Below are positions 217 through 17,361 of a stretch of DNA of 64,000 nucleotides, piece by piece. The first letter of the stretch is position 1. Every line of letters begins with the position of its first letter. The DNA is from Candidatus Latescibacterota bacterium (lineage in GTDB: Bacteria > Latescibacterota > UBA2968), in contig OZ244960.1 in assembly GCA_965222605.1 (NCBI GenBank), positions 288,001-352,000 of the forward strand. Direction: 5' to 3'. The notes beneath the pieces are model-generated. The model was given only the letters and a program-made list of their open reading frames with translations. It had not been told where the DNA came from and ran no database searches. The position numbers and the translations under genes are program-made.

Positions 217-225
217 CTTATTCAC

Positions 226-754: not shown

Positions 755-780
755 GTTTATCGAATAATAGGCACTTGAGA

Positions 781-1152: not shown

Positions 1153-1182
1153 CTCAAACTCCTTATTCATTGGGAGACTTAT

Positions 1183-1211
1183 AATATACCAGGTGCAATG
1201 ATAGCTGTCAA
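1183..1211 (-). promoter_or_regulatory. sigma70-type promoter for rpsL-rpsG-fusA
   Basis: TTGACA-N17-TATATT on the minus strand; the -35 box contains the rpoC TGA stop. Confidence 0.75.
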
Positions 1212-4200
1212 GCATTAATTGGAGGTAGTCCAATGCTTTCTGTGCTCTCTTCTGCGAGGGCTTCAAAAACCTGCGATTCTTCCATCACATCTGTATCCAA
1301 ATCGCGGTATTTCAAAGCACCTGTACCGGCGGGAATAAGGTGTCCGATAATCACATTTTCCTTTAATCCCAACAGCGTGTCAACTTTGCCCTGCACTGCT
1401 GCTTCGGTAAGCACTCTTGTAGTTTCCTGAAAAGATGCTGCAGAAATGAAACTCTCGGTCAAAAGAGAGGCTCGAGTAATCCCCAACAAGACGGGATTGT
1501 GAGTTGCGGGATCGCCCCCTTCAGCGAGAATCTTGTCATTTTCATCGAGGAAGCGGAATCGGTCAACGAGTTCGTCTTCGAGAAAATTGGTATCTCCAGG
1601 ATCTGTCACCTGCACTTTCTGCAACATTTGCCGGACGATAGTTTCAATATGCTTGTCATTGATTTTAACACCCTGGAGCCGATAAACCTGCTGAATTTCG
1701 TCAACGAGATACTCCTGGACTTTTCGATCTCCCAAAATAGCCAGAATATCGTGTGGATTTACCGAGCCTTCAGACAGACGATCACCCGCGGTTACGCGAT
1801 CACCTTCCTGTACGCGCAGATGTCGTCCGTAGGGAATGGTGTATTTTTTTTCTTCGCCCTCATCAGCAGTAACCAGGACAATGCGCGAGCCTCTCACCAT
1901 ACCGCCAAAGCGCACCGAGCCGTTGATTTCTGTTACCACAGAGGCCTCTTTGGGCCGACGCGCCTCAAAAAGTTCAGCCACACGCGGCAAACCACCTGTA
2001 ATATCTCGTGTTTTGCTGCGTTCACGCGAAATTTTAGCCAGCGTATCACCAGCTGCTACCTGGTCGCCATCGTGCACTACCAGTCGCGCCCCCAGGGGAA
2101 TGATGTAATGGCCCAGTTCTTCGCCATTTTCATCAACAACCAAAATCTGCGGCGATAAGGTGCGGTCTCGGTGCTCAATCACGACTAATCCGGCAATGCT
2201 GGTGGTTTCATCGATCTCTTCGCGATATGTCACCCCTTCTACGAGATCCACAAACTGAACCCTACCAGCGTTGGGCGATACAATCACATTGTTATAAGGA
2301 TCCCATTCGTAGAGTGCCTGGTCCTCTTCCACATTTTGGCCCTCCTGCACCCGCAACACGGCTCCATGCGGCACATGGTAGTGCCCTCCCCGTACACGGC
2401 CCTGATCATCTTGCACTTCGATTTCGCCATTTCGACCGACCACAACCCACGAACCTGCATCGCGCTGGACAAACTCGAGATGCTTAAAGATAACTATTCC
2501 CGCACGCTTTGCACCAATCTCGGCCTGTTCGGCAATGCGGCTGGAAGTACCCCCAATATGAAAGGTGCGCAATGTCAATTGCGTTCCTGGTTCGCCCACA
2601 CTTTGCGCTGCGATAACACCCACGGCCTCTCCAATATCAACGGGTAGCCCGGTGGCGGGGTTGCGACCATAACAGGCTATACAGACCCCTCGTCGGGTTT
2701 CACACGTCAATACGGACCGCACAAAGACCTGATCTATACCTGCATCGGCAATTTTGTCAGCCAATTTTTCATCCAATAAAACGCCTGCTTCAACAATGCG
2801 GTCCCCCGTAATGGGATCTTCTACATCATCCTGGACCGTGCGTCCTACAATGCGGTCAGACAGCGATTCAACAACTTCTTCGCCTTCTTTCAAAGCTTCC
2901 ATCTCAATGCCCAATATCGTTCCGCAATCAGTTTCAGAAATAACCACATCTTGCGATACATCCACCATACGACGCGTCAAGTAGCCCGCTTCGGCGGTCT
3001 TCAAGGCCGTATCGGCCAGCCCCTTGCGACTGCCGTGCGTCGAAATAAAATACTCAAGCACGGTCAGACCTTCTTTGAGTGACGAAATAATAGGCGTTTC
3101 AATAATTTCGCCAATCGCTCCTGTCAATTTCTTTTGCGGTTTATTCATCAGCCCGCGCATACCGCCGAGTTGCTTGATCTGATCGTCGTTGCCTCGCGCG
3201 CCCGAGTCCTTCATAATCCAGATCGAATTGAAGCCCTCTTCGGCTTTTTCAAATGCACCAATCATGGCCTGGGCAATGTGATTAGTCGTATGCTGCCACA
3301 CATCAATCACTTTGTTGTAGCGTTCGCCCTCAGTAATAGCCCCGATCGCGTGTTGTTCAATAATTTTTTCGACTTCGACCATAGCACCGGTAATCAATTC
3401 TTCCTTTTCGGGAGGCACGACTACATCGCTCACCGCAATCGAAATACCCGACCGAGTCGCATAATCGTATCCCAATTGCTTCAAGCCATCGAGAAAATCT
3501 GTCGTAATGCGGTTGCCATACCGACTGTGAACTTCAGAAGAAACTTTGCGGATACCTTTGTCATCGATCAATTCATTGATAAAAGGCATCATTTCGGGCA
3601 TAATTTCATTAAAAATGACGCGCCCAACCGTGGTTATTAAAAGCTCACCATCAATGCGAACGCGTACGGCTTCGTGCAGGCCAATGCGTTCAAAATCATA
3701 CGCCATGCGAGCTTCACCAGTACTGCTAAAGGTTTTGAGGTTTTCTTCCTTGCCGTGAACAATTTTTGTCAGATAGTACAGACCCAGCGCTATTTCCTGG
3801 GGTTTATCAACCACCACAGGAGACCCATCGGCAGGTTTGAGCAAATTGTTTGAAGACAGCATCAACACCCGCGCTTCAATCTGGGCCTCGAAAGAAAGTG
3901 GCAGGTGCACGGCCATCTGATCGCCGTCAAAATCGGCATTAAATGCTGCACAGACCAGAGGGTGAATGCGAATGGCTTTGCCTTCTACGAGCACAGGCAA
4001 AAATGCCTGAATGCCCAGACGATGCAATGTCGGAGCGCGGTTGAGCAAAACGCAGTGATCCTGGATAATTTCTTCAAGGATATCCCATACTTCGACGCGC
4101 TCGCGTTCGACTAATTTTTTCGCACTTTTAACGGTTTGAACGAGGCCTTTTTCTTCGAGCCGCCGAATAATAAATGGCTTGAATAATTCCAGAGCCATAT

Positions 4201-5299
4201 GTTTGGGCAGCCCGCACTGATAAAGCCTCAAATGAGGATCGACCACAATCACAGAACGGCCTGAATAATCGACGCGTTTACCCAAAAGATTCTGACGGAA
4301 TCGGCCCTGTTTACCCTTGAGCAGATCGGAAAGCGACTTGAGGGATCGGTTGCCATCACCGCGAACAGCGCGAGACCGACGACCATTGTCAAACAGGGCA
4401 TCTACAGCCTCTTGAAGCATACGTTTTTCATTGCGTAAAATGACTTCGGGCGCTTTGATTTCAATCAGTTTTTTTAGCCGATTATTTCTATTGATCACGC
4501 GGCGATACAAATCATTGAGATCCGACGTTGCAAACCGCCCGCCCTCTAAGGGTACAAGAGGACGCAAGTCGGGAGGGATGACGGGAATCACATCGAGAAT
4601 CATCCAATCGGGCTGATTATCCGATTGACGGAAAGCTTCAACGACCTTGAGGCGTTTGAGCGCCTCTTGTTTGCGCTGCACCGAAGTCTCGAAACGAGCT
4701 TGCGTTCGCAGTTCAGCAGATAGATCCTCAATATCGATCGCCGCCAACAGTTTTTTGATAGCGCCAGCCCCCATATCGACCTCGAATGAATACCCTTCAT
4801 CTTCGAGATCAATCACCTCATCTTCAGTGAGCAAATCCTTGGATTTGAGATCGGGCGCATCGCCGGGATCGAGCACCACATAAGATTCGTAGTAAATGAT
4901 CCGTTCGAGATTGCGAACGGAAAGATTGAGCAAATATCCCATGCGAGATGGCAGAGACTTAAAAAACCAGATATGTGTCACTGGAACAGCCAATTCGATG
5001 TGCCCCAGACGTTCTCGTCTGACCTTCGATTGGGTCACTTCTACCCCACACCGATCGCACACCACCCCCCGGTATCGAATGCGCTTGTATTTACCGCAAT
5101 GGCACTCCCAGTCTTTGACAGGACCAAAAGTGCATTCACAAAATAATCCGTCGCGCTCGGGCTTAAAAGACCGGTAATTGATGGTTTCAGGTTTGGTAAC
5201 CTCGCCGCGTGACCACCCGCGGATGGTATCTGGCGAAGCCAGTTGAATACGAATAGAATTAAAGTCTAAGGGTTGATTGGCAAAATTGGTATTGGCCAC
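1208..5299 (-). CDS. rpoC: DNA-directed RNA polymerase beta' subunit
   Basis: 1363 aa; [12 protein letters not shown] catalytic motif, N-terminal zinc finger, [19 protein letters not shown]. Confidence 0.99.
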
Positions 5300-5329
5300 G
5301 AGAGAACCCCCTTTTCAAATCTTATGTCG

Positions 5330-8300
5330 TCAGTCAATTTGCGCGTTTTCGAGTACCACGTCCAAACACAGGCTTTGCAATTCTTTAACCAGAACATTAA
5401 ATGATTCTGGCACGCCGGGTTCGGGTGGGTTTTCTCCCTTCACAATGGTCTCGTAAATTTTGGATCTGCCCGCTACATCGTCGGATTTGACAGTGAGCAT
5501 TTCCTGTAACATGTGTGCAGCACCATAAGCTTCGAGTGCCCAAACTTCCATTTCTCCAAAGCGCTGTCCGCCAAACTGGGCTTTGCCACCCAAAGGTTGC
5601 TGTGTGACCAGTGAATAGGGTCCAATCGAACGCGCGTGAATCTTATCGCTGACCAGATGCGACAGTTTCAACATATAAATGATGCCGACCATCACTTCTT
5701 TATCAAATGGTTCCCCTGTTTTGCCATCGTAAAGAAGCGTTTTTCCGTTTTCGGGCAAACCAGCTTTTCGCAACATATCCTGGACATCGTCCATGCTCGC
5801 GCCATCAAACACAGGGGTCGCAAAGTGAAGGTCCAGTTTGTGGGCTGCCCAACCCAAATGGGTTTCGAGGATTTGGCCGAGATTCATGCGAGAGGGAACA
5901 CCGAGTGGATTCAAAACCAGATCAATAGGTGTACCATCGGGCAAATAGGGCATATCTTCTTCGGGCACGATAATCGAAATCACACCCTTGTTGCCGTGTC
6001 GTCCGGCCATTTTATCCCCTACCATCAGCTTTCTTTTTCGGGCGACATAGACCTTGACCAGTTGCACAATGCCCGGCGGGAGTTCATCTCCACGCGCGAT
6101 TTTTTCAAGCTCTCGCTCGCGTTCTTCTTCTGCCTGCTGCATCACGTGGGCGGCCAGTTCAATCAATCGATCCACCCTTTGGCTTGTCGCTGGACTGTCA
6201 CACCAATCCCCGTCGGGTATCACTGTGCCCAAGTCAAAATTTTCCAGTGACCTTTCATTCAACGCCGTGCCAGCTTTTACAACCACCTCGCCGTCTTCAT
6301 CGCGCAGGGTATTGACTCTGCGGTTCTTGAGAAGAGCCAGGACCTGCTGATCGCGGCTTTGTTTTAATGACTCAATCTTGGAGGAAATGCGTTTCCTGGC
6401 CGATCTGGTCTTTTCCTTGTCTTCATTTCGCGTCTTTTCGTCGCGTTCTTTGCGAGAAAAAACTTTGCGATCCATTACCACGCCATCCATTCCCGGGGGG
6501 GCTTTGAGCGATGCATCGCGTACATCGCCGGCCTTTTCGCCAAAAATCGCACGCAACAAACGCTCTTCGGGCGACAATTCAGTTTCGCCCTTTGGGGTCA
6601 CCTTCCCAACGAGAATATCGCCCTGATTGACTTCTGCCCCCACGCGAATAATGCCGTGCTCATCGAGATTGCGAACAGCCTGCTCACTCACGTTGGGAAT
6701 TTCACGCGTAATTTCTTCTGTGCCGCGTTTGGTATCGCGAACCTGGAGCTCAAACTCTTCAATACTAATTGACGTGAAAATATCCTTTTTAATGAGCCGC
6801 TCAGAGACAATAATGGCATCTTCGAAATTGTACCCATGCCACGACATAAACGCCACGAGCACATTGGCACCGAGCGCGAGATCTCCTCGATCTGTGGCAC
6901 AACCATCGGCCAATAACTGCCCCTTTTCAACTTTATCACCAACCTTTACAACTGGACGCTGGTTGATACAAAAATCTTGATTAGATCGCTTGAATTTGGT
7001 CAGGTCGTAAATGTCTTCATCAGACAGCGAAATGGTTTCAATACTGCGACTCTTTCTGCGCTTAACAACAATTTTGTTGGCACTGACATATGTCACAACA
7101 CCGGCGTTTTTCGCAATGATCACAGCTTTTGAATCAACGGCAACTTTGTGCTCGAGACCTGTTCCAACACGCGGGGCATCCGTAATTAAGAGAGGCACAC
7201 CTTGCCGCTGCATATTAGACCCCATCAACGCTCGGTTGGCCTCATCGTGCTCAAGGAAAGGAATGAGTCCGGCGGCGGCACTCACAAGCTGGACGGGTGA
7301 AACGTCCATATAGTCAATCGCTTTGGGACCGATCACGGGAAAATCGCCACGCCGCCTCGCCTGCACGACATTATTTTGAAACTCGCCCTTGTCATCAAGA
7401 GCCAGATTGGCCTGTGCAATGGTATGGCGATCTTCTTCGTCGGCAGGCAAATACACAATATCCTGTGTAACTTTGCCATCTTTGACCTTCCGATAGGGCG
7501 TCTCGAGAAAGCCAAAGGGATTGACCTTGGCATAAGTTGCCACAGACACAATCAGGCCGATATTTGGACCTTCAGGCGTTTCGATGGGACAAATGCGGCC
7601 GTAGTGCGTGTGATGTACATCGCGCACCTCAAACCCCGCCCGATCGCGCGTTAATCCTCCCGGCCCTAATGCCGACAAACGGCGTTTGTGGGTCAGTTCG
7701 TCAAGCGGATTGATTTGCTGCAAAAACTGCGACAATTGGCTGCTGCCAAAAAAGGCTTGAACCACAGTAGATACAGTCCGCGCGTTGACCAGATCATGGG
7801 GGGTAAGTTGCTCAGAATCACGCAAACTCATACGCTCTCTAATCGTGCGCGCCATGCGTGCCAAACCAATACTAAATTGCTTGGAGAGCAGCTCGCCAAC
7901 AGAGCGCACCCGCCGATTGCCCAAATGATCGATATCATCGGTAAACCCTCCCCCCATAGCCAGGCTGAGTAGATAGCCAATGACTTTAATAAAGTCATCA
8001 ATACACAGCATGGTGAAGTCAAGCGGAATATTATCGACCATATCCAAACGCTGGTTAATGCGATAGCGCCCAACAGTACCCAGATTATAACGTCTGGGAC
8101 TAAAAAAATGTCGCTCAAGCAATCCGCGAGCAGTTTCAATATTGGGTGGATCGCCTGGGCGCAGCAGGCTATAAATCCGCGAGAGTGCTTCTTCCTCATT
8201 GTCACACGGATCTTTGTCCAGCGTATTGGTAATAATCCCGCCATCGTTTTCGGGATCGATATCCATTGCGGTAATTTTGCCGATCTGATTTTCCTGAAGC

Positions 8301-9103
8301 GCAACGATATGCTCTTCCGTCAACGTGGTATATGCTTCTACTATCACTTCTCCTGTCTTTTTATTTACCACATCTTTAGTAACAACGCAATCGACGAGTT
8401 CTTCAGTAACTTTAACTGTGGCATCGCCGTGAAAAATGCCCAAAATTTCCTCGGACTTGTCAAACCCCAAAGCTCTCAATAAAGTCGTGACTGGCAATTT
8501 GCGTTTGCGGTCGATATGAACGTACATAATATCGTTGATATCGAGACTAAATTCGAGCCATGCTCCGTTGTCGGGAATAATTCTGGCGGAAAATAAACGC
8601 TTGCCATTTGGATGAATAGAATCGTCAAAAAATACGCCCGGGGACCGGTGTAATTGGCTGACGATCACGCGCTCTGAACCGTTGATGACAAATGTACCTT
8701 CATCGGTCATCAACGGCAGTTCGCCTAAGAATACCGTCTGCTCGACGATATCTTTAACGCGAAATTTGCTATTTCCCTGTTTTTCTCGAGAAATCAGACG
8801 AAGCGTTGAACGCAGAGGCACGGCATAAGTCGTACCGCGTTCGAGACATTCTTGCACATCGTATTTGGGAGTTCCAACGGAATAATCTACAAACTCTAAA
8901 GAATAGAGATTGTGGGCGTCTGTGATCGGGAAGATACCGTGGAAGACCGCCTGGAGGCCCTGTTTCTCGCGTGCTCCAGGCGGTGTATCCTTCTGTAAAA
9001 ACCAGTCATAAGAATCGAGCTGGATATCCAGCAGATTCGGCATTTCGATTGCAGACGTGAGAGTTCCATACGATTTCCGGTCAATAAATCCTCTATCTGC
9101 CAA
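5330..9103 (-). CDS. rpoB: DNA-directed RNA polymerase beta subunit
   Basis: 1257 aa; [30 protein letters not shown], rifampicin region [10 protein letters not shown]...[12 protein letters not shown]. Confidence 0.99.
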
Positions 9104-9175
9104 GGGCTCACGCTCCTGTGCTGGAAGGCTAACGGTCAGTTACGGATTTGTACACTGCACAAACTTACGACAACC

Positions 9176-9550
9176 CTATTTGAGTTCCACCACCGCACCG
9201 GCTTCTTCCAGTTCTGCCTTAACCTGTTCAGCTTCTTCTTTTTCTACGCCTTCTCTGACGGTATTGGGGGCCCCATCAACCAGAGCTTTGGCTTCTTTAA
9301 GGCCCAACGAGGTAATGCTGCGAACAACCTTGATCACCTGAATTTTTTTGTCTCCAGGAGAAGACAAAATCACATCAAATTCTGTCTGCTCTTCAACAGC
9401 GGGAGCAGCATCACCGCCACCGCCGCCAGGTGCTGCAACAACAGCTGCCTGTGCAGTCACGCCAAACTTTTCCTCAAGTGCTTTGACCAATTCAGCCAAC
9501 TCGAGCACCGAGAGTTTTTCAATTTCGCTAATAATGGATTCAACAGCCAT
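9176..9550 (-). CDS. rplL: 50S ribosomal protein L7/L12
   Basis: [19 protein letters not shown]...[10 protein letters not shown]...[10 protein letters not shown]; GGAGG Shine-Dalgarno before ATG 9550. Confidence 0.98.
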
Positions 9551-9595
9551 GAACATACCTCCGTCCAGCAATGAATTGGGTGTGTGATAAGCGGT

Positions 9596-10129
9596 CTATT
9601 CGCCGCCTTCTTCCTTTTTTTTCTCAGCAACAGCTTGAAGTGTACCAACGAGTTTTTGCAAAATGCCATTCAGCGTAAAAGCAAGGCCACTTATCGGGCT
9701 TTGTATTGCAGATACCATCTGGCCCAGCAGAACATCGCGCGAAGGTATTTGAGCCAGTCTCTCGATCTGGTCTGCGACAAATATCTCGCCATCAATATAC
9801 CCGGCTTTAATCGTGGGCTTGCCATCGGTTTCTTCAGCGAATTTGGTCAGCACGCGGGCCGGTGCTATGGGGTCTTCGTCGGCGCAAACAAGCCCCGTGG
9901 GACCGAGGAATACATCGTCGAGCCCTTCGACTCCGGCTTGTTTAATAGCCAATTTAGCCAACCGATTTTTTATTACGCGGTAGGAGACCGATTCTTCGCG
10001 AAGTTGCTTTCGCAACAGGGTAATTGAAGGAACGTCTAACCCCGTAAAATCAGTTAGATACAACCCTTTGGCCCGTTTTAAGATATCTGTCAATTCTGCG
10101 ACAGTAGCCTCTTTTTGAGCAGTTGGCAT
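9596..10129 (-). CDS. rplJ: 50S ribosomal protein L10
   Basis: DFTGLDV...LRKQLR...VIKNRLAKLA; lies between rplA and rplL. Confidence 0.96.
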   Translation of the reverse strand: MPTAQKEATVAELTDILKRAKGLYLTDFTGLDVPSITLLRKQLREESVSYRVIKNRLAKLAIKQAGVEGLDDVFLGPTGLVCADEDPIAPARVLTKFAEETDGKPTIKAGYIDGEIFVADQIERLAQIPSRDVLLGQMVSAIQSPISGLAFTLNGILQKLVGTLQAVAEKKKEEGGE

Positions 10130-10146
10130 TTCTGTACCTTTCTCAA

Positions 10147-10848
10147 TCAATTGGCCGCCAGCGCCGTGCGGTCCAGGCGAATACCCGGCCCCATAGTAGT
10201 CGATAATGTGACCGAACGCATGTATTGTCCTTTTGTAGCAGATGGACGCGCTCTGATAATTGCATCGATCAATACCTGAGCATTTTCCTGAAGGCGCTGT
10301 GCATCAAAAGACGCTTTGCCCACAGGCGTATGTACATTGGACGTTCTATCGACCCGATATTCTACGCGCCCCGCTTTGGCTTCCCGCACCGCACGCGCCG
10401 CATCGGGCGTCACTGTGCCACTCTTGGGATTGGGCATCAGGCCTCGAGGTCCAAGAATGCGTCCCAATCGTCCGACCTGTCCCATCATGTCGGGCGTGGC
10501 AACAGCCACATCGAAATCCGTCCAGCCGCCATTGATCTTTTCCACCAGGTCTTCGGCTCCTACAAAATCTGCACCCGCCGCTTCGGCAGCAGTAGCGGGC
10601 TCGCCCCTGGCAAAAACTGCAACGCTCACGGATTTGCCCAGCCCGTGTGGCAAGACGACTGTGCCGCGCACGAGTTGGTCGGCTTGCCGCGGATCAATGC
10701 CCAGCCGAAACGAGAGCTCAACCGTTTCGTCAAATTTCCGAATAGGCATTTTTTTTAAGATGTCAATAGCGTCGGCCAGACCGTAATGCGTTTGGCGGTC
10801 AAAAAGTGCAGCCGCTTGTTTATAGCGTTTGGATTGCCCTCGTGCCAT
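10147..10848 (-). CDS. rplA: 50S ribosomal protein L1
   Basis: KFDETVEL...LPHGLGK...[19 protein letters not shown]...STTMGPG. Confidence 0.98.
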
Positions 10849-10860
10849 ACATACCTCCGG

Positions 10861-11286
10861 TCAATTGTTGACGGTCAGCCCCATACTACGAGCTGTTCCC
10901 GCAATCATGCGCTTGGCAGCCTCGATGCTGGCCGCATTGAGGTCTTGAACTTTCATTTCTGCAATTTCCTGAAGTTGGGCATCGGTCACGGACCCCACTT
11001 TGTCTCGGTTGGATTCTGGCGACCCTTTGACAATCCCCGCTGCCCTCTTGAGCAATACGGCCGCAGGTGGACTCTTCAACTCAAAAGAAAAACTCCTGTC
11101 CGCGTAAACCGTGATAATTGCGGGAATTATCAAACCCTGTTTATCCTGAGTTTGTGCATTAAAAGCTTTGCAAAATTCCATAATATTGACGCCGTGCTGT
11201 CCCAAAGCTGGACCAACCGGTGGTGTGGGCGTCGCCTGCCCAGCGGGAATTTGCAACTTGATTGTTGTGAGAATTTTTCTGGCCAT
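10861..11286 (-). CDS. rplK: 50S ribosomal protein L11
   Basis: [35 protein letters not shown]...GTARSMG. Confidence 0.98.
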
Positions 11287-11298
11287 TGATACCTCTTG

Positions 11299-11835
11299 TT
11301 ATCGCGATTCGATAGCTTCTTCAACCTGCAAGACATCTAATTCCACGGGTGTGTTGCGCCCAAAGATGCTAACCATCACTTTGATTTTGCTCTTTTCTGG
11401 ATTGATGTCGTCAACCAGCCCAATAAAATCGCTGAAAGGTCCATCGATCACCTTGACCCGATCGCCTACTTGATAGGGAACATCAGAGGTTTCCTCGACC
11501 GGACGACGCTCAATTTGCCCCAAAATGCGGTTCACCTCTTCTTCTCGCAGAGGTTGTGGTCTTCGGCCTGGACCGACAAAGCTCGTCACACCCGGTACAC
11601 TGGTGACAAAATAGAGAGACTCTTTGTCCATATCCAGTTCAACCAAAAGGTAACTGGGCAAAAATTTCTTGAGGGAGGTCGTTTTCCGTCCATCCTTCAT
11701 CTCGACGACTTCCTCAGTTGGCACAATCACCCGACCAATTTTGTCGCCAACATCGATGTTTTCTTTGGCGGCCTCAATATAGCTCTTGACCTTATTTTCG
11801 TGCCCAGAATAGGTGTGGACAACGTACCATTTCAT
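11299..11835 (-). CDS. nusG: Transcription termination/antitermination factor NusG
   Basis: KWYVVHTYSGHENKV NGN domain and KOW motif (VKVIDGPFSDF...VSIFGRNTPVEL). Confidence 0.97.
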   Translation of the reverse strand: MKWYVVHTYSGHENKVKSYIEAAKENIDVGDKIGRVIVPTEEVVEMKDGRKTTSLKKFLPSYLLVELDMDKESLYFVTSVPGVTSFVGPGRRPQPLREEEVNRILGQIERRPVEETSDVPYQVGDRVKVIDGPFSDFIGLVDDINPEKSKIKVMVSIFGRNTPVELDVLQVEEAIESR

Positions 11836-11865
11836 CGGTCGAAAACTCCCTGACAAAAAATCCCG

Positions 11866-12051
11866 TTAAATCAGGATAAACGCCATAATACTCGCCAAAA
11901 AAGTATCTACAATATAAATGAATCCGGCCAGTACAAGTGACAATATAAGTACAATTATAGTCGATGATTTGAGTTCGTCACGAGTAGGCCAGGTGACCTT
12001 TCCCATTTCAACGTGCACTTCGCCGAGAAATTGACTGATTTTATCAAACAT
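11866..12051 (-). CDS. secE: Preprotein translocase subunit SecE
   Basis: FLGEVHVEMGKVTWPTRDEL followed by one TM helix; canonical position upstream of nusG. Confidence 0.93.
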   Translation of the reverse strand: MFDKISQFLGEVHVEMGKVTWPTRDELKSSTIIVLILSLVLAGFIYIVDTFLASIMAFILI

Positions 12052-12066
12052 AAGAAAATATAAAAA

Positions 12067-12142
12067 TGGCAGGCCAGGCAGGACTTGAACCCGCAACCGT
12101 CGGTTTTGGAGACCGATGCTCTACCAGTTGAGCTACTGACCT
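12067..12142 (-). tRNA. tRNA-Trp (CCA)
   Basis: AGGTCAGTAGCTCAACTGGTAGAGCATCGGTCTCCAAAACCGACGGTTGCGGGTTCAAGTCCTGCCTGGCCTGCCA; cloverleaf with encoded CCA end. Confidence 0.96.
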
Positions 12143-12154
12143 ACCCAAAAATAA

Positions 12155-12230
<76 letters not shown>

Positions 12231-12255
12231 GTTGGGAATTCCCCACTTGAGGTTC

Positions 12256-12332
12256 TGGAGCGGGAAACGGGACTCGAACCCGCGACCCTCAGCTTGGAAG
12301 GCTGACGCTCTGGCCAACTGAGCTATTCCCGC
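12256..12332 (-). tRNA. tRNA-Gly (TCC)
   Basis: GCGGGAATAGCTCAGTTGGCCAGAGCGTCAGCCTTCCAAGCTGAGGGTCGCGGGTTCGAGTCCCGTTTCCCGCTCCA. Confidence 0.96.
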
Positions 12333-12344
12333 CCGGCTATGTAT

Positions 12345-12375
12345 AAAAAACAACCCTTTTCTGCAAAAGGGATCG
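12345..12375 (-). terminator. Intrinsic terminator-like hairpin just upstream of tRNA-Gly
   Basis: Minus strand CGATCCCTTTT-GCAG-AAAAGGGTTG followed by TTTTTT. Confidence 0.6.
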
Positions 12376-12408
12376 GTATTGCCAAAAAATATTCTTCCGA
12401 GAATTAGC

Positions 12409-12437
12409 AAGATATGGAAAATACGGTCTAAGGTCAA
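12409..12437 (-). promoter_or_regulatory. sigma70-type promoter between tRNA-Tyr and tRNA-Gly
   Basis: TTGACC-N17-TATCTT on the minus strand. Confidence 0.6.
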
Positions 12438-12557
12438 GAGAATTTTGTATAAACTCAAACCTGTGATAGATCAACCCAAAATGGTAAGTCGGCATCTTTA
12501 ATAATGTAGGCAGGGCACGCCTGCTTTGGTATTGGAGGAAGAAACTATTGGAGATTT

Positions 12558-12643
12558 TGGTGGGGGGTGGCGGATTCGAACCACCGAAGGCATAAGCCAG
12601 CAGATTTACAGTCTGCCCCAGTTGGCCGCTTTGGTAACCCCCC
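12558..12643 (-). tRNA. tRNA-Tyr (GTA)
   Basis: GGGGGGTTACCAAAGCGGCCAACTGGGGCAGACTGTAAATCTGCTGGCTTATGCCTTCGGTGGTTCGAATCCGCCACCCCCCACCA; long variable arm. Confidence 0.96.
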
Positions 12644-12661
12644 AAATTGTACAGGCTTCGA

Positions 12662-12690
12662 AAAATACCAGAAGATATTTCGATAGTCAA
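12662..12690 (-). promoter_or_regulatory. sigma70-type promoter of tRNA-Tyr
   Basis: TTGACT-N17-TATTTT on the minus strand. Confidence 0.65.
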
Positions 12691-12719
12691 GACCAAAATC
12701 ACTCAGCGCCAATTGCAGA

Positions 12720-12748
12720 TTGACAAATCTGCCTACCTTTGCTATTTT
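12720..12748 (+). promoter_or_regulatory. sigma70-type promoter of the divergent isomerase gene
   Basis: TTGACA-N17-TATTTT. Confidence 0.65.
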
Positions 12749-12809
12749 CCGAGTTCAATTTTCCGCAGTTAATCTTCTCTTGTCAGATGCCTGTTGCGAA
12801 AGGAGCAAA

Positions 12810-13724
12810 ATGACCGACCCCATTCAAAACTATGCGCGTATTGGTATTGTTCACTTTATGGCCTATAAAGCCTGCATTGGCGGCGAGGGGCCCATTTTGG
12901 AAACCCTGGAAAAAATCGCCCTTGACCCCTATTTTCAGGTCGTTGAAGTCACCCACATGAAAGACCCGCAAGTGCGCGCACAAGCACGCGACTTGCTCAC
13001 CGCTGCCCACATGGATGTGGCTTTTGGAGCGCAACCCATTTTGCTCGGCAACCAGCTCAATATCAATGCCCCCGATATCGCCCACCGTCAAAGTGCTGTT
13101 GACGCCGTCAAAGCGGGAATTGACCAGGCCGAAGAACTTGGTGCCCCAGGGTGTGCCCTGCTTTCAGGCGTAGATCCAGGTCCCGAAGGCCGCGAAGAAG
13201 GTCTCGACCTGCTGGTAGATTCTTTGAGCCAACTCTGCGAGTATGCCGGCGAAAAAAATATGGACATTGTACTTGAAACCTTTGACCGTGTACCTTACGG
13301 GAAAAATTGTATTGTGGGACCTAACGCTCTCGCCGTTGAAGTCTCAAACCGCCTCAGACGCCAGTATCCCAATTTTGGCCTGATGCTCGATTTGAGCCAT
13401 TTCCCACTTCAGGATGAAGGCACAGTTTACGCCATCAACATCGCACGGGATCACATCGTCCACATGCATGTTGGCAATTGCGTGATGTCCAACCCCGATC
13501 ATCCGGCCTATGGCGATAACCATCCCCGCTTTGGCTGCGAAGATGGCGAAAACGATGTACCCGAAGTTGTAGAATTTCTCCGCGAACTGCTCAATATCGG
13601 TTATCTCGACCCCGATAAGCGTCCCATCCTGAGCTTTGAAGTCTCTCCGATGGAAGGAGAATCTTCGGAAATCATTATTGCCAATGCCAAGCGCGTGCTC
13701 GACGAGGCCTGGGCGCAAGTCTAA
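12810..13724 (+). CDS. Sugar phosphate isomerase/epimerase (xylose-isomerase-like TIM barrel)
   Basis: Metal-ligand pattern LETFD...LDLSH...HMHVGN...HP...SFEV; AGGAG Shine-Dalgarno before ATG 12810. Confidence 0.8.
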   Translation: MTDPIQNYARIGIVHFMAYKACIGGEGPILETLEKIALDPYFQVVEVTHMKDPQVRAQARDLLTAAHMDVAFGAQPILLGNQLNINAPDIAHRQSAVDAVKAGIDQAEELGAPGCALLSGVDPGPEGREEGLDLLVDSLSQLCEYAGEKNMDIVLETFDRVPYGKNCIVGPNALAVEVSNRLRRQYPNFGLMLDLSHFPLQDEGTVYAINIARDHIVHMHVGNCVMSNPDHPAYGDNHPRFGCEDGENDVPEVVEFLRELLNIGYLDPDKRPILSFEVSPMEGESSEIIIANAKRVLDEAWAQV

Positions 13725-13742
13725 ACGCGCGCTCAAACTACA

Positions 13743-13783
13743 ATAGCCGGACATTTCCTTTTCGGAAAGCCCGGCTATTTTTT
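13743..13783 (+). terminator. Intrinsic terminator between convergent genes
   Basis: ATAGCCGG...CCGGCTAT stem followed by a T tract. Confidence 0.75.
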
Positions 13784-13799
13784 ATTAACCACGAGACGT

Positions 13800-14558
13800 T
13801 CAATTCCAATATTCACTTTGTGCAGGTGGTCCAGACCTTAATGCACTGCGAATCAACAGGCCCAAAACCCGGGTAAACACCACCATCAAAAAAAAATTAA
13901 ACATCGAAGCCAGCACCAAACCCACCCAGGACAAATGTCCCAATATCAAACTGCCGAGCAGAGATATCCCAAACAGACCAAAACACGCTTGAACGTAGTC
14001 TGCCCGAAAAATCTGGCGCAAATCCCGCCAAACAGGCCCCGGCTCAAATGCCATCCACACACGCCCGTTGGCGGCAAATCGCGTAAATACAATGGGGAAA
14101 AAACCGTGAAAAAAGATGACCATAAGTGTAAACAACAGCAACAGAGGCCCGGCTTCTTCTACAGAACTCGGTATCAAACCCAATACCGAAATCACCATTG
14201 AAAAACTCGCAAATCCAATGACGCTATATCCCAGGACAATGAGGAACAACCAAAATCCCGCTAATCCATAAGCCCACCAATTGCCCCACGAAGGCAAGTT
14301 CAGCGATTCAGTACCGTTGAGCGCATCGACAAAAATCCGGTATAAGTAACCCCAGGTAATGAACAAAAGTCCAAAGGTTACAATCAACAACACGATCCCC
14401 ATCTCAAGCCCAATTTGCCCAGTGAGAATCAGACTCAGCACCAGCGCGGGTAGCAAATTTAATACACCGCCAGGGACAATTTTTTGCCACCAGCCAGGCG
14501 CCTGAAACACAGTTCGGAGTGTGTTAAATAAAATAATGCCAAACATAGCTTTCCACAT
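13800..14558 (-). CDS. Multi-pass membrane protein, DUF4013-like
   Basis: About 6 hydrophobic segments with the WGY..RI...LPSWGNW...G pattern; ATG 1 nt after the metB stop. Confidence 0.6.
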   Translation of the reverse strand: MWKAMFGIILFNTLRTVFQAPGWWQKIVPGGVLNLLPALVLSLILTGQIGLEMGIVLLIVTFGLLFITWGYLYRIFVDALNGTESLNLPSWGNWWAYGLAGFWLFLIVLGYSVIGFASFSMVISVLGLIPSSVEEAGPLLLLFTLMVIFFHGFFPIVFTRFAANGRVWMAFEPGPVWRDLRQIFRADYVQACFGLFGISLLGSLILGHLSWVGLVLASMFNFFLMVVFTRVLGLLIRSALRSGPPAQSEYWN

Positions 14559-14559
14559 G

Positions 14560-15753
14560 TTAGACTGCGTCGAGCGCCCGTCCAACATCGGCGACAATAT
14601 CCTCAGCGTCTTCAATTCCCACGGCATAGCGCACCAACTCATCGGCAATGCCAATTGCCAATCGATCTTCGCGCGTCAACTCGTAATACGAAATAGATGC
14701 GGGATGCGAAACGAGGCTCTCTACACCTCCCAGACTGGCCCCGATACACGGGATTTGCAAGCGGTCAATAAAATCCAGGGTACCCGCCTCATCCGCATCT
14801 AAATCAAAACTCACCAGCCCACCAAATCCACGCATCTGCGCTTTGGCAACACTGTTGTGTGGATGGCTTTCCAAACCGGGATAATACACGCGCTTTACCC
14901 GATCGTGCTTTTCCAAAAACCGCGCCAACATTAGCGCCGTTTCATTTTGCTTACCCATTCGCAGTGGAAAAGTCTTGATCCCCCGGATCAGCAAATAAGC
15001 ACAATGCGGATCAATCACCCCTCCCAAAATACCTCGATAGTCTCGAATCGCATCAACAAGGGGCGCATTACCCAGCACAGCGCCAGCCATCAAATCGTTG
15101 TGCCCTCCCAAATACTTGGTCGCCGAATGAATGACCAGATCGACGCCAAATTCGAGCGGGCGCTGGTTTAAGGGCGTGGCAAATGTGCTGTCAATAATCG
15201 TCTTTACCCGATGCCTTTTTCCAATGTCAACCAGCTTTTCGAGATCGATCACATTGAGATGTGGATTTGTCGGAGATTCGGAAATAATCACCCGCGTGTT
15301 ATCCTTGATCGCGCCTTCCAATTCGGCGTAATCACCTGCGTGAACAAATGTGGTTTCAATGCCAAATTTTTTTAACACCATCTGGCAAAATTGTGCGGTC
15401 TTGCGATAGCAGTCGTCCATAATCACCGCGTGGTGCCCGGTTGACAGCATACCCAGAAGCGTGGTTGTCACAGCACTCATACCCGACGAAAATAAAATAG
15501 CGGCCTCTGCGCCTTCCAATTCTGCCAGCTTGGATTCTGCGGCATGCTGTGTTGGATTGCCGTAGCGCCCATAGTCAATCTGTGGGTTTTTGCCCGCCAC
15601 AAACGCTTTAACCGCTTGCGTATCTTCAAATACATAAGTCGATGTCTGCACAATGGGCACTGTCAGAGATTTTCCCCAGTGTCCTCTTTCTTCACCTGCA
15701 TGTACAGCCCGTGTCCCGGAACAGGGCGCGTGCGTTTCGCACTTTTCAGACAT
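14560..15753 (-). CDS. metB: Cystathionine gamma-synthase (plant-type trans-sulfuration PLP enzyme)
   Basis: YGRYGNPT, ESPTNP, IDSTFATP, HSATKYLGGHND (PLP lysine), SLGGVESLV; GGAG Shine-Dalgarno. Confidence 0.85.
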   Translation of the reverse strand: MSEKCETHAPCSGTRAVHAGEERGHWGKSLTVPIVQTSTYVFEDTQAVKAFVAGKNPQIDYGRYGNPTQHAAESKLAELEGAEAAILFSSGMSAVTTTLLGMLSTGHHAVIMDDCYRKTAQFCQMVLKKFGIETTFVHAGDYAELEGAIKDNTRVIISESPTNPHLNVIDLEKLVDIGKRHRVKTIIDSTFATPLNQRPLEFGVDLVIHSATKYLGGHNDLMAGAVLGNAPLVDAIRDYRGILGGVIDPHCAYLLIRGIKTFPLRMGKQNETALMLARFLEKHDRVKRVYYPGLESHPHNSVAKAQMRGFGGLVSFDLDADEAGTLDFIDRLQIPCIGASLGGVESLVSHPASISYYELTREDRLAIGIADELVRYAVGIEDAEDIVADVGRALDAV

Positions 15754-15764
15754 GCGCCATCTCC

Positions 15765-15793
15765 AAAAAAAAGCGGAGCCACAAAAGCTCCGC
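15765..15793 (-). terminator. Second terminator hairpin of the metB leader
   Basis: GCGGAGC-TTTTGTG-GCTCCGC followed by T8, directly abutting the GGAG ribosome-binding site. Confidence 0.75.
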
Positions 15794-15802
15794 GCAGTAC
15801 GC

Positions 15803-15827
15803 AAAAAAACCGGACTAAAAAGCCCGG
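15803..15827 (-). terminator. First terminator hairpin of the metB leader
   Basis: CCGGGCT-TTTT-AGTCCGG followed by T7. Confidence 0.75.
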
Positions 15828-15840
15828 AATTTGGAATAAC

Positions 15841-15890
15841 TTTTTAGCGACTTGTTTAAAGTGGCTGCAATATGCCGCAAATCACCACTC
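15841..15890 (-). ncRNA. SAM-II (SAM_alpha-type) riboswitch
   Basis: GAGTGGTGATTTGCGGCATATTGCAGCCACTTTAAACAAGTCGCTAAAAA matches the SAM-II pattern GTGG-TGATTTG...TTGCAG-CCAC...TAAACAAGTCGCTAAA and sits upstream of a methionine biosynthesis gene. Confidence 0.9.
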
Positions 15891-15909
15891 GCCATAGCTG
15901 TGTTTGAGA

Positions 15910-15938
15910 AATATAACCAAAACTCCCAACCCTGTCAA
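15910..15938 (-). promoter_or_regulatory. sigma70 promoter of the riboswitch-metB transcript
   Basis: TTGACA-N17-TATATT immediately after the thrC stop. Confidence 0.8.
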
Positions 15939-17303
15939 CTATCGGTTGCCTTCAATCCGGTCGAGAATCGCCTTTTTGACAGCATCAACTTTGGGCGGCA
16001 ACACAACGGGTTCATTGCAGTAATGCGGACTTACGCCCCAGTCCTGTAACTGATCTCGATGATACCCGAGCTTAAACTCGGTAAACTTCAATCCGTGAGC
16101 CGTTGAAATCACAACCACGCGATCGCTTTTCTGAATCACACCCCTGTCAGCCAACTTGAACAATGCCGCGAAAGCCACCCCTGTGTGCGGGCATGCAAAC
16201 AAACCCGTGCGATCGGCACGCGCAGCCGCATCGGCCAATTCTTGCTCACTGGCTTGCTCTACGACGCCGCCAAATATTTTGAGCGTTTTGATCGCTTTTT
16301 CCCGACTCACCGGATTGCCAATTTGGATCGCACTGGCCAATGTGGGCTGTGCCTGAATCGGTTCAAAACTATCGAAATTCTTTTCAAAACTACGGTAGAG
16401 CGGATTTGCCATATTGGTCTGTGCGACTACAATACGCGGCAGCCGATCAATTAGCCCAAGTGCTTCCATTTCGAGAAAACCCTTGCCGAGCGCACTCACA
16501 TTGCCCAGATTTCCGCCGGGAATCACAACCCAATCGGGCACTTCCCAATCAAATTGCTGTACCAACTCGATGCTGATTGTTTTTTGCCCCTCTACCCGCA
16601 GTGAATTCATCGAATTGGCCAAATAGATATTTTCCTCGTGGCAAATCTCCTGCACGAGTCTCATACATCCATCAAAGTCGGTCTCCAAACTCAGCACCAG
16701 CGCACCATTGGCCAAGGGCTGCAAAAGTTGTGCAGTCGAAATTTTGTCCCTCGGCAAAAAGACCACCGACTGTATGCCCGCCGCCGCACAATACGCAGCC
16801 AATGCCGCCGAGGTGTCTCCAGTAGATGCACAGGCAACCGCAGGAATACGCGCCCCCTCAAACAGCATCTGTTTCACCATCGACACCAGCACGGTCATGC
16901 CCAAATCTTTGAATGATCCCGTATGGCTATTGCCGCATTGCTTAACCCACAAATCCTCAACCCCAATTTCTCTGCCCAAACGCTCGGCCCAAAACAGATT
17001 GCTTCCCCCTTCGTACATCGACACCACATTGTCTTCGTGAACTACGGGACAGACCAGTTCTTTTTTTCCCCATACAGAACTGCCATAAGGCCATCTCGTA
17101 GTCATATAACGCTTATCAAATAACCCGCGCCAATAACTGCTCGACTTGCGTTTGAGCACCTCCATATCGTGCGCCACTTCGAGCAACTCCCCGCACTTTG
17201 GACATGCGTAAATCACATCTGTCAACGCATATCGCCCCTCACACCCGCGAAAACACCGAAACCACGCATTGTAAGTTGTATCATTCATATTTTCGTTACG
17301 CAT
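15939..17303 (-). CDS. thrC: Threonine synthase (plant-like clade)
   Basis: [10 protein letters not shown] (PLP lysine), [39 protein letters not shown]; start may be 17303 or 17288. Confidence 0.92.
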
Positions 17304-17361
17304 TATGACAAAACCCAGCACAAATGCACCAAACTCGCCAACACTACCACATATCACAGAG

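What the first reader, a model, noticed from the sequence alone, without database searches (positions are those of the whole stretch)
15754..15938. SAM-II riboswitch with two tandem terminators, each complementary to a different part of the aptamer
Seen: promoter, then the SAM-II aptamer (15841-15890), terminator 1, terminator 2, GGAG and ATG. The aptamer 3' tail GCTAAAAAGTT can pair over 11 nt (three G-U pairs) with GGCTTTTTAGT spanning the loop and stem of terminator 1. The P1 3' strand AGCCAC can pair with GTGGCT in the loop and 3' arm of terminator 2. Known: SAM-II is mainly proteobacterial and usually acts by hiding the ribosome-binding site. Inference: one aptamer gates two terminators in series, giving tighter repression, in a probable FCB-lineage host.
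Basis: partly seen in the sequence, partly recalled or inferred. Interest (0 to 1): 0.8.

Follow-up and report, generated by a model that had tools for sequence, protein, structure and literature searches.

The report
SAM-II riboswitch with two serial terminators
This is a genuine SAM-sensing RNA switch in front of a methionine-pathway gene of an uncultured Latescibacterota bacterium, unusual only in having two transcription stop signals in a row, both of which look matched to the same moving strand of the sensor.

Summary
The feature is real and lies on the minus strand. It runs: promoter (15938-15910), SAM-II aptamer (RF00521, 44.5 bits against a gathering score of 36), terminator T1 (15827-15810 plus U7), terminator T2 (15793-15773 plus U8), GGAG, then ATG 15753 of a Cys/Met PLP enzyme. 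The host is Candidatus Latescibacterota, which is in the FCB group.

The pairing of the aptamer's 3' tail GCUAAAAAGUU with the T1 apex is conserved. 52 of 65 related leaders hold at least 9 contiguous pairs. The tail nucleotides G-N-N also form the covarying pseudoknot, so the pseudoknot and the antiterminator exclude each other. This is an ordinary transcriptional OFF switch, as already described for SAM-II in 2005 and 2007.

T2 is conserved in 20 of 21 species of the genus. Tandem terminators recur in eight genera, yet only 4 pairs occur among 984 terminator-like sites genome-wide.

The claimed pairing of T2 with P1 (GUGGCU:AGCCAC) is at chance level (p about 0.1). It is lost in 3 of 20 genomes and has an ensemble probability of at most 0.002. 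T2 fits the same tail better. Whether T2 is gated at all remains untested.

The parts
15933..15938 (-). -35 box TTGACA; it abuts the TAG stop codon (15941..15939) of the upstream thrC gene
   Evidence: 11 of 12 positions match the sigma-70 consensus. TTGACA is kept in all g1 leaders and in 9 of the 10 leaders printed from other genera (not L007).
15910..15915 (-). -10 box TATATT (TACATT in most relatives), with a 17-nt spacer. The transcription start is predicted near 15903.
   Evidence: One contig from an RNA library (X19, 505 nt) ends at 15901. This is only a weak hint.
15823..15898 (-). SAM-II aptamer (extent of the Rfam RF00521 match)
   Evidence: 44.5 bits against a gathering score of 36. 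The next best riboswitch family is RF01726 at 20 bits against 44.
15884..15889 (-). P1 5' strand AGUGGU
   Evidence: helix 1 is paired in 99.4% of cells. Its closing pair is AU in 43 sequences, CG in 6, GU in 2 and GC in 1.
15860..15865 (-). P1 3' strand GCCACU.
15869..15876 (-). Pseudoknot 5' strand inside the P1 loop. GGC (15876..74) pairs with GUU (15840..38). UU (15870..69) pairs with AA (15844..43).
   Evidence: all three pairs of helix 2 change on both sides, and 95.6% of cells are paired. 0 of 500 shuffles reach the observed covariation score.
15838..15852 (-). Switching 3' tail AGUCGCUAAAAAGUU. It forms the pseudoknot 3' strand when SAM is bound. When free, it is complementary to the T1 apex and to the T2 5' arm, loop and start of the 3' arm.
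15810..15827 (-). Terminator 1 hairpin: 7 bp, loop UUUU, dG -10.4 kcal/mol
   Evidence: Present in 21 of 21 genomes of the genus.
15803..15809 (-). U7 tract of T1
15773..15793 (-). Terminator 2 hairpin: 8 bp, loop of 5, dG -14.3 kcal/mol
   Evidence: Present in 20 of 21 genomes of the genus and degenerate in G018. Only one-sided changes occur in the stem (A-U or G-U; G-C or G-U).
15765..15772 (-). U8 tract of T2
15751..15764 (-). Shine-Dalgarno GGAG (15764..61), a 7-nt spacer, and start codon ATG (15753..51)
   Evidence: read directly from the sequence. The ATG at 15760 is out of frame.
14560..15753 (-). Regulated gene: a 397-aa Cys/Met-metabolism PLP enzyme of the cystathionine gamma-synthase/sulfhydrylase family
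   Evidence: PF01053, 438.8 bits; the best NCBIfam model is NF006097 at 403 bits, below its cut-off of 600, so the exact activity is not assigned.
15939..17357 (-). Upstream gene for threonine synthase. No terminator lies between it and the riboswitch promoter.
   Evidence: (TIGR00260, 221.9 bits against a cut-off of 167.1)

Best explanation
This is a SAM-II riboswitch that switches transcription off, with two intrinsic terminators in series in front of a methionine-pathway PLP enzyme gene.

Shown by sequence and comparison:
- The aptamer has the SAM-II P1 stem and an H-type pseudoknot.
- The pseudoknot's 3' strand is the tail ...GCUAAAAAG-U-U.
- The same tail nucleotides are complementary to the 5' arm, loop and start of the 3' arm of T1. 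The pseudoknot and the antiterminator therefore exclude each other.

Inferred mechanism:
- With SAM bound, the tail is locked in the pseudoknot, T1 folds and RNA polymerase stops at U7.
- Without SAM, the free tail captures the T1 5' half as it emerges, and the polymerase passes.
- T2 is a second real terminator that acts on transcripts which escape T1.
- T2's most likely antiterminator partner is the same tail: AGUCGC pairs with GUGGCU and AAAAGUU pairs with AGCUUUU.
- The tail would be released when T1 finally folds behind the polymerase and would be handed over to T2. One ligand decision would then be read twice, and the two ON/OFF ratios would multiply.

My odds: about 0.9 for the SAM-II aptamer plus a tail-gated T1. 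About 0.9 that T2 is a functional terminator. About 0.5 that T2 is gated by the tail rather than ungated.
For: Aptamer:
- RF00521 scores 44.5 bits against a gathering score of 36.
- P1 and the pseudoknot pair in 98.5% of cells across 53 distinct relatives. 4 pairs change on both sides, and 0 of 500 shuffles reach the covariation score.

Gene context:
- The downstream gene is a Cys/Met PLP enzyme.
- A Myxococcales homologue of this gene carries a SAM-I riboswitch instead (L041).

T1 gating:
- In 41 distinct tail/terminator combinations, the 11-bp core pairs as follows: p1 41 of 41, n1 39 of 41, p3 32, p2 31, n2 29.
- 52 of 65 leaders hold at least 9 contiguous pairs, although the terminator stems differ between genera.
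- In nascent-transcript ensembles the tail:T1 helix reaches P 0.91 just before the T1 3' arm is out. It then gives way to T1.

T2 as a real feature:
- It has an 8-bp stem followed by U8.
- It is present in 20 of 21 genus members.
- It is not a repeat element.
- Tandem terminators are rare in this genome: 4 pairs among 984 sites. They nevertheless recur in SAM-II leaders of eight genera: g1, g6, g9, g11, g17, g19 and g20 clearly, and g8 only through one doubtful call (L137, weak U tract).

T2 and the tail:
- The T2:tail duplex is -11.3 kcal/mol, as strong as T1's -11.2, with p 0.02-0.04.
- GCUUUU occurs in only 26 of 984 terminator-like hairpins of this genome. Both T1 and T2 have it.
- All three apex variants in the genus keep 9-10 contiguous pairs to the tail.
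- Downstream terminators of other tandem lineages also fit the tail: g6 p<=0.0005, g9 0.0075, the second g6 leader 0.009, g11 0.034, g17 0.03-0.05, g19 0.07.
- The tail:T2 helix reaches P 0.6-0.9 at transcript lengths just before T2 is complete.

Transcripts: RNA-library contigs bridge the leader and the coding region (X19 15401-15901; X18 15736-15887).
Against: - No experiment has been done. SAM binding and termination are inferred.
- At equilibrium both T1 and T2 form with P>0.9 whether or not the tail is blocked. Any gating must therefore be kinetic. The antiterminator states are less stable than the terminators here (ddG +2.0 for T1, +5.8 for T2).
- Within the genus the T2:tail fit is weak by the hairpin-preserving null: p 0.04-0.24.
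- The longest contiguous T2:tail helix in the window (7 bp with G-U) is reached by 22-61% of shuffles.
- T2 looks like a diverged copy of T1. Shared GCUUUU could therefore be inherited rather than selected.
- One tandem lineage (g20, L148) has a downstream terminator with no fit to the tail (p 0.92).
- In g17 the upstream hairpin is the one that does not fit (p 0.27-0.43).
- The free tail is also complementary to T1's U tract plus GCGUAC. That helix is in the lowest-energy fold of the full leader and would compete with a hand-over.
- With the tail blocked, a small local hairpin (UUUUGCGU/GCGCGGAG) also covers the T2 5' arm transiently. Both states therefore have a competitor for T2.
- One species (G018) has lost T2, so T2 is dispensable.
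- The relatives are not independent, so the counts overstate the support.
Confidence: 0.5

Rival explanations
1. The aptamer and the tail-gated T1 are as in the best explanation, but T2 is not gated. T2 would be a constitutive or fail-safe terminator. It would catch polymerases that leak through T1, cap maximal expression, and perhaps define a stable leader RNA.
For: - T2 forms with P>0.9 in both states at equilibrium.
- T2 is 5.8 kcal/mol more stable than the tail:T2 state.
- The T2:tail complementarity in the window is only marginally beyond chance.
- The g20 tandem leader has a downstream terminator that does not fit the tail.
- There is precedent. S. meliloti metA has a validated terminator downstream of its SAM-II aptamer for which no SAM-driven antiterminator could be predicted, and it limits expression in both media (PMC9373788, passages read). 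In the c-di-GMP riboswitch Bc1 the second terminator stays folded when the ligand binds (PMC11218506, abstract read).
Against: - A perfect 8-bp GC-rich stem with U8 placed 8 nt before the Shine-Dalgarno would throttle a biosynthetic gene under all conditions.
- Downstream terminators in six or seven other tandem lineages fit the tail better than hairpin-preserving shuffles. This includes g6, whose T2 is not a sequence copy of T1 (p<=0.0005).
- GCUUUU is rare in this genome's terminators, at 2.6%.
Confidence: 0.33
2. T2 is antiterminated by the P1 3' strand AGCCAC pairing with GUGGCU in the T2 loop and 3' arm, so that two different parts of the aptamer gate two terminators.
For: A perfect 6-nt Watson-Crick complement exists. 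It is kept in 17 of the 20 genus members that have T2.
Against: - 9-18% of control hairpins have a Watson-Crick match of 6 nt or more to the aptamer. The duplex energy of -10.6 gives p about 0.10.
- In G003, G009 and G016 the match falls to 4 nt while P1 is invariant.
- Its ensemble probability is at most 0.002 at every nascent length, even without forcing P1.
- It targets the last-made arm of T2 rather than the first-made arm.
- P1 is not the ligand-dependent element. The 3' end folding into the pseudoknot is (PMC3326309, abstract and passages read).
- GUGGCU pairs equally well with the tail's AGUCGC, contiguous with the AAAAGUU:AGCUUUU helix.
Confidence: 0.04
3. T2 is not primarily a terminator. 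The 7-bp inverted repeat GCGGAGC-N7-GCUCCGC would instead be a protein operator, or an RNA hairpin that modulates translation or stability. Its arms contain GGAG and CUCC, which look like a Shine-Dalgarno and an anti-Shine-Dalgarno.
For: - It has inverted-repeat geometry.
- CUCC in the 3' arm could pair with the real GGAG 10 nt downstream.
- Zur binds the dual-terminator DNA of Bc1 (PMC11218506, abstract read).
Against: - The hairpin is followed directly by U8 in all 20 genomes that have it.
- In g6 a different sequence occupies the same place and keeps hairpin-plus-U-tract features but not the repeat sequence.
- CUCC:GGAG would be a 4-bp helix with a 10-nt loop.
- No regulator gene is adjacent.
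Confidence: 0.05

Closest known systems
SAM-II (metA element, Rfam RF00521) riboswitches of alpha-proteobacteria, e.g. Agrobacterium tumefaciens metA (Corbino et al. 2005, PMC1273637)
   Same: - The same covariance-model family, with a P1 stem plus pseudoknot.
- A near-consensus promoter a few nucleotides before P1.
- A putative intrinsic terminator between P2 and the ORF.
- Methionine-pathway genes downstream, with OFF logic.
   Different: - The host phylum is Latescibacterota rather than Proteobacteria or Bacteroides.
- The P1 loop is short (GCGGCAUAUUGCA) and P2a has only 3 bp.
- There are two terminators instead of one.
Sinorhizobium meliloti metZ and metA SAM-II riboswitches (Scheuer et al. 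2022, PMC9373788)
   Same: - metZ: SAM binding is predicted to form a Rho-independent terminator.
- metA: a further validated terminator lies downstream of the aptamer and strongly limits expression.
   Different: - In metA the aptamer controls a Shine-Dalgarno, and the extra terminator has no predicted link to the aptamer.
- Here both hairpins sit between the aptamer and the Shine-Dalgarno, and both are complementary to the aptamer tail.
- Their Fig. S1 (supplement) could not be seen.
c-di-GMP-I riboswitch Bc1 of the Bacillus cereus group, with a dual terminator (Liu et al. 2024, PMC11218506)
   Same: One aptamer is followed by two typical intrinsic terminators a few tens of nt apart (28 bp there, 16 nt here).
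   Different: - It is a different ligand class.
- There the ligand unfolds T1, while T2 stays folded and masks the response.
- Here the ligand should favour both terminators.
Sargasso Sea metX SAM-II (the structurally studied, compact, translational form; described in PMC3326309 and PMC9373788)
   Same: The same fold. The 3' strand of the pseudoknot is the ligand-dependent element.
   Different: - There the 3' strand carries the Shine-Dalgarno.
- Here it carries the antiterminator strand, and the Shine-Dalgarno is about 75 nt further on.
- Shine-Dalgarno-overlapping forms do exist in other Latescibacterota (L155-L157).

Membership tests
SAM-II riboswitch (Rfam RF00521 SAM_alpha) | Covariance-model score at or above the curated gathering score | tested here: met
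   44.5 bits against 36, covering model positions 1-79 of 79
SAM-II riboswitch (Rfam RF00521 SAM_alpha) | P1 stem supported across relatives | tested here: met
   6 pairs, 99.4% of cells paired. The closing pair is AU in 43 sequences, CG in 6, GU in 2 and GC in 1.
SAM-II riboswitch (Rfam RF00521 SAM_alpha) | H-type pseudoknot between the P1 loop and the 3' tail | tested here: met
   the 3 P2a pairs all change on both sides, and 95.6% of cells are paired. The 2 U-A pairs are invariant. Slid controls pair in 22-69% of cells, against 98.5% for the tested structure.
SAM-II riboswitch (Rfam RF00521 SAM_alpha) | Location in the 5' leader of a methionine or SAM pathway gene | tested here: met
   The downstream gene is PF01053, a Cys/Met PLP enzyme
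SAM-II riboswitch (Rfam RF00521 SAM_alpha) | Selective binding of S-adenosylmethionine | not testable with these tools
   Needs in-line probing, ITC or a structure
Intrinsic (Rho-independent) terminator: T1 and T2 | GC-rich hairpin immediately followed by a U tract | tested here: met
   T1 has 7 pairs (5 GC) plus U7. T2 has 8 pairs (6 GC) plus U8. Fold energies are -10.4 and -14.3 kcal/mol.
Intrinsic (Rho-independent) terminator: T1 and T2 | Transcripts actually end at the U tract | not testable with these tools
   Only assembled contigs of RNA libraries were available. These cannot show 3' ends.
Transcriptional OFF riboswitch expression platform | An aptamer strand that is sequestered by ligand is complementary to the terminator's 5' half | tested here: met
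   This holds for T1. There are 11 pairs, and the tail nucleotides are shared with the pseudoknot. At least 9 contiguous pairs occur in 52 of 65 leaders.
Transcriptional OFF riboswitch expression platform | The same complementarity for the second terminator T2 | tested here: inconclusive
   The duplex is -11.3 kcal/mol, with p 0.02-0.04 in the window and 0.04-0.24 over genus variants. Other lineages give stronger values, but g20 gives 0.92.
   p is about 0.1-0.18. The match is lost in 3 of 20 genomes without compensation. P is at most 0.002.

The most novel reading that the evidence does not exclude
A single ligand-dependent strand is used twice. The SAM-II tail first blocks T1. It is then released when T1 folds behind the polymerase, and it blocks T2. 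Two terminators in series would thus read the same aptamer state and multiply the switch's dynamic range. Such a serial, hand-over expression platform would have arisen repeatedly in Latescibacterota by duplication of the terminator.
Probability: 0.4. Interest if true: 0.6.

Novelty: new variant of a known kind. Interest (0 to 1): 0.4.

Why it matters
The aptamer class and the terminator mechanism are textbook, so the core finding is ordinary.

What is new is modest:
- SAM-II is common in one class of the uncultured phylum Latescibacterota. It was found in 60 of 151 genomes sampled and in all 29 other sampled genomes of the window's family. My search found no paper that mentions SAM-II together with this phylum.
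- Its expression platform repeatedly carries two terminators, both matched to the same switching strand.

If the second terminator is really gated, this is a simple natural way to sharpen a single-aptamer riboswitch without a second aptamer. That would be useful as a design idea and testable with standard termination assays.

If it is not gated, it joins S. meliloti metA and Bc1 as a case where a constitutive terminator caps a riboswitch-controlled gene.

Tried and rejected
1. A leader peptide. An ATG at 15895 opens a 26-codon frame that ends in the T1 loop. The ATG is not conserved in the genus, so I rejected it.

2. A helix between the 5' flank (UGGCGA) and the tail, seen in lowest-energy folds. 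The flank varies without compensation, so I rejected it as a conserved element.

3. A relay in which the freed T1 3' arm pairs with the T2 5' arm. In this genus it gives only 4 to 6 bp by hand inspection. It looks possible in g9 and g11, where T1 and T2 are near-identical repeats. I did not pursue it.

4. RNAduplex of whole terminators against the whole aptamer. This was uninformative because large interior loops let shuffles score as well as the real sequences.

5. My first two terminator callers mis-called sites. I replaced them with the caller. That caller still mis-assigns L114 and L146, calls a hairpin inside the L131 coding region, and calls a weak-U-tract hairpin in L137.

6. RNA evidence. 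Only assembled contigs of four metatranscriptome runs could be laid, so no 3' ends, strand or expression levels can be read. No contig at 88% likeness or more covered 15902-16056; this is a hole and nothing should be concluded from it. One contig of a relative runs upstream through a -10 box, so DNA carry-over in these libraries cannot be excluded.

7. A SAM-II look-alike found by regular expression in an Entotheonella MAG (L050) did not reach the Rfam gathering score, so I dropped it.

8. A kinetic co-transcriptional simulation was not run, because no suitable program was on hand.

These include Corbino 2005's full alignment and Scheuer 2022's Fig. S1. They might already show tandem terminators or the same antiterminator design in Proteobacteria.

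10. Literature searches. 'SAM-II' plus 'Latescibacter' returned 0 papers. 'riboswitch' plus 'tandem terminators' returned 3 papers, none of which, by its listing, is about a riboswitch platform.

Full report
**What is there**

The feature lies on the minus strand. Reading 5' to 3' it consists of:
- a near-consensus promoter, TTGACA-17-TATATT, at 15938..15910 (11 of 12 positions), whose -35 box abuts the stop codon of an upstream threonine synthase gene;
- an Rfam RF00521 (SAM_alpha, SAM-II) match at 15898..15823, at 44.5 bits against a gathering score of 36;
- hairpin T1 (15827..15810, 7 bp, -10.4 kcal/mol) followed by U7;
- a 13-nt spacer;
- hairpin T2 (15793..15773, 8 bp, -14.3 kcal/mol) followed by U8;
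- GGAG, a 7-nt spacer, and ATG at 15753.

The ATG opens a 397-aa Cys/Met-metabolism PLP enzyme (PF01053, 438.8 bits). Its best NCBIfam models are cystathionine gamma-synthase and sulfhydrylase types, all below their cut-offs.

This is the only SAM-II match in the 6.3-Mb genome.

**Host**

The closest named records for the regulated gene are MAGs titled Candidatus Latescibacterota, the best at 96% identity. NCBI taxonomy places this phylum in the FCB group.

SAM-II was found in 57 of 61 close relatives and in 60 of 151 genomes sampled over the phylum. The hits are concentrated in four families: f1 29/29, f2 18/19, f4 2/2 and f3 10/64. None was found in the 36 genomes of ten other families. These figures are for the genomes searched, not for the whole phylum.

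**Membership in SAM-II**

I aligned 53 distinct aptamers from these genomes and tested P1 plus the loop-to-tail pseudoknot.
- 98.5% of cells form pairs.
- Four pairs change on both sides: the P1 closing pair and all three P2a pairs.
- 0 of 500 shuffles reach the observed covariation score.
- Slid controls pair in only 22-69% of cells.

The family's sequence-level defining features are therefore met. SAM binding itself cannot be tested with these tools.

**T1 is gated by the tail**

The tail nucleotides that form P2a (G15840, U15839, U15838) and the A run are the same ones that pair with GGCUUUUUAGU of T1. The pseudoknot and the antiterminator therefore exclude each other.

In the window the match is 8 Watson-Crick pairs, or 11 with G-U. 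That is reached by 0.4-7% of control hairpins.

I collected 65 leaders from 17 genera. The terminator stems differ between genera, but the apex keeps GCUUUUU(A/G)G.
- 52 of 65 leaders have at least 9 contiguous pairs to the tail. Two more were mis-called by my script.
- The 11-bp core pairs in 29-41 of 41 distinct combinations, depending on the position.
- Covariation is mostly one-sided, because the tail is fixed by the aptamer.

In ensembles of nascent transcripts the tail:T1 helix reaches P 0.91 just before the T1 3' arm emerges. It then yields to T1.

This is the standard OFF design and is not new. Corbino et al. [quoted passage not shown] Scheuer et al. 2022 predicted the same for S. meliloti metZ. 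I read passages of these papers.

**T2 is real and selected**

- It is present in 20 of 21 species of the genus. In G018 it is degenerate, while T1 is kept in all 21.
- Its stem shows only one-sided changes.
- It is not a repeated element.
- A rule-based scan of the whole genome found 984 terminator-like sites and only 4 same-strand pairs 5-45 nt apart. One of these is this leader.
- Among 71 SAM-II leaders run through my caller, 33 have two such hairpins before the start codon. I count two of these as doubtful. The 33 fall in genera g1, g6, g8, g9, g11, g17, g19 and g20. The doubtful L137 is the only support for g8.
- Relatives are not independent, but tandem terminators are clearly a recurrent trait of these leaders.

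**What gates T2, if anything**

- 9-18% of control hairpins match the aptamer as well, and the duplex energy gives p about 0.10.
- It shrinks to 4 nt in G003, G009 and G016 while P1 is invariant.
- Its probability is at most 0.002 at every transcript length, even when P1 is not enforced.
- It addresses the last-made arm of T2 and a strand that is not the ligand-dependent one. The pseudoknot forms only after metabolite binding (PMC3326309).

The same GUGGCU pairs with AGUCGC of the tail, next to AAAAGUU:AGCUUUU. Evidence for this pairing:
- The T2:tail duplex is -11.3 kcal/mol, as strong as T1's -11.2, with p 0.02-0.04 in the window and 0.04-0.24 over genus variants.
- The three apex variants that lose the P1 match gain contiguous tail pairing of 9-10 bp.
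- GCUUUU is present in only 26 of 984 terminator-like hairpins of this genome, and both T1 and T2 have it.
- Downstream terminators of other tandem lineages fit the tail: g6 p<=0.0005 (with a sequence unlike T1), g9 0.0075, a second g6 leader 0.009, g11 0.034, g17 0.03-0.05 and g19 0.07. The g20 terminator does not fit (p 0.92).
- With T1 folded, the tail:T2 helix reaches P 0.6-0.9 just before T2 is complete.

Evidence against gating:
- Both terminators win at equilibrium in either state.
- The antiterminator states are 2.0 (T1) and 5.8 (T2) kcal/mol less stable.
- The free tail can also pair with T1's U tract plus GCGUAC.
- A small local hairpin competes for the T2 5' arm when the tail is blocked.
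- T2 may simply be a diverged copy of T1.

**Verdict on mechanism**

I commit to a SAM-II OFF switch whose tail gates T1 (about 0.9), followed by a second functional terminator (about 0.9). I rate T2 as about even odds to be gated by the same tail through a hand-over after T1 folds. The main rival is an ungated fail-safe or attenuating terminator (about 0.33). Published precedents for that rival are S. meliloti metA (PMC9373788) and the dual terminator of the c-di-GMP riboswitch Bc1 (PMC11218506, abstract).

**Expression**

Contigs from RNA libraries bridge the leader and the coding region. One is a 505-nt contig of a 93%-like relative at 15401-15901, ending 2 nt from the predicted start. Another is a 152-nt contig at 15736-15887. 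Contigs cannot show ends or expression levels, and DNA carry-over is possible, so this is only a weak hint that read-through transcripts exist.

**Novelty**

The class and the mechanism are known. The new points are the phylum, the recurrent two-terminator platform, and the fit of both terminators to one switching strand. No paper in the searched library mentions SAM-II together with Latescibacteria.

Noticed in passing
L010 318-1454 (-); also L006, L137, L141, L144, L145 (leaders): In several Latescibacterota a second SAM-II riboswitch precedes an L-threonine 3-dehydrogenase gene (NF003808, 412.5 bits against a cut-off of 380). This is an unusual member of a SAM regulon. It may link threonine-derived glycine and one-carbon supply to SAM. 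Only the L010 protein was scanned; the others were judged from the similar N-terminal sequence in the leader printout. The window's own genome has no such copy.
   Followed up: partly
L150 151-227 and 316-392 (+) (G103): Two SAM-II aptamers lie in tandem, both above the gathering score (48.2 and 42.3 bits). The first is followed by a terminator. In the second, the tail runs into GAGGGAG plus ATG, which suggests ribosome-binding-site control. Transcriptional and translational SAM-II would then act in series in one leader.
   Followed up: partly
L155, L156, L157 (G135, G117): These are SAM-II-like aptamers just below the gathering score (about 35 bits). The tail reads GCUAAAAGGAG followed by ATG or ACG about 8 nt later. 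This is the classical form in which the Shine-Dalgarno sits in the pseudoknot strand, so both control modes occur in this phylum.
   Followed up: no
L041 837-943 (+) (Myxococcales MAG): The homologue of the regulated PLP enzyme (62% identity) is preceded by a SAM-I riboswitch (RF00162, 59.6 bits). The same gene is thus under different SAM riboswitch classes in different phyla.
   Followed up: no
window 15803-15809 plus 15796-15802, with 15841-15853: The free tail AGUCGCUAAAAAG is also complementary to T1's U tract plus GCGUAC, giving 12 pairs with two bulges. This helix encloses T1 in the lowest-energy fold of the full leader. UUUUUUUGCGUA after T1 is shared by genera g1 and g6. Its role is unknown. 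It could extend T1 or compete with the tail:T2 pairing.
   Followed up: partly
window 12070-12332 (-): Three tRNA genes lie in a row (67.8-72.2 bits), about 2.2 kb downstream of the regulated gene.
   Followed up: no
window 13800-14654 (-): The ORF after the regulated gene holds a DUF4013 domain (60.9 bits) and matches no NCBIfam model. Its listed start overlaps the end of the PLP enzyme gene by 95 nt, so the true start is probably later.
   Followed up: no
genome C1 6155686-6155757 (+), outside the window: One of the four tandem terminator pairs in the genome is an exact direct repeat of a 31-nt hairpin-plus-U-tract unit.
   Followed up: no
upstream flanks of the g1 leaders: In about half of the distinct genus leaders printed, the sequence upstream of the conserved promoter is not thrC. 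Synteny upstream therefore varies, while the promoter, riboswitch and gene travel together.
   Followed up: no
loose ends at 15840: Metatranscriptome runs labelled as sponge and coral metagenomes hold SAM-II leaders of other Latescibacterota genera (g7- and g9-type spacers). These match the window only over the conserved aptamer.
   Followed up: no
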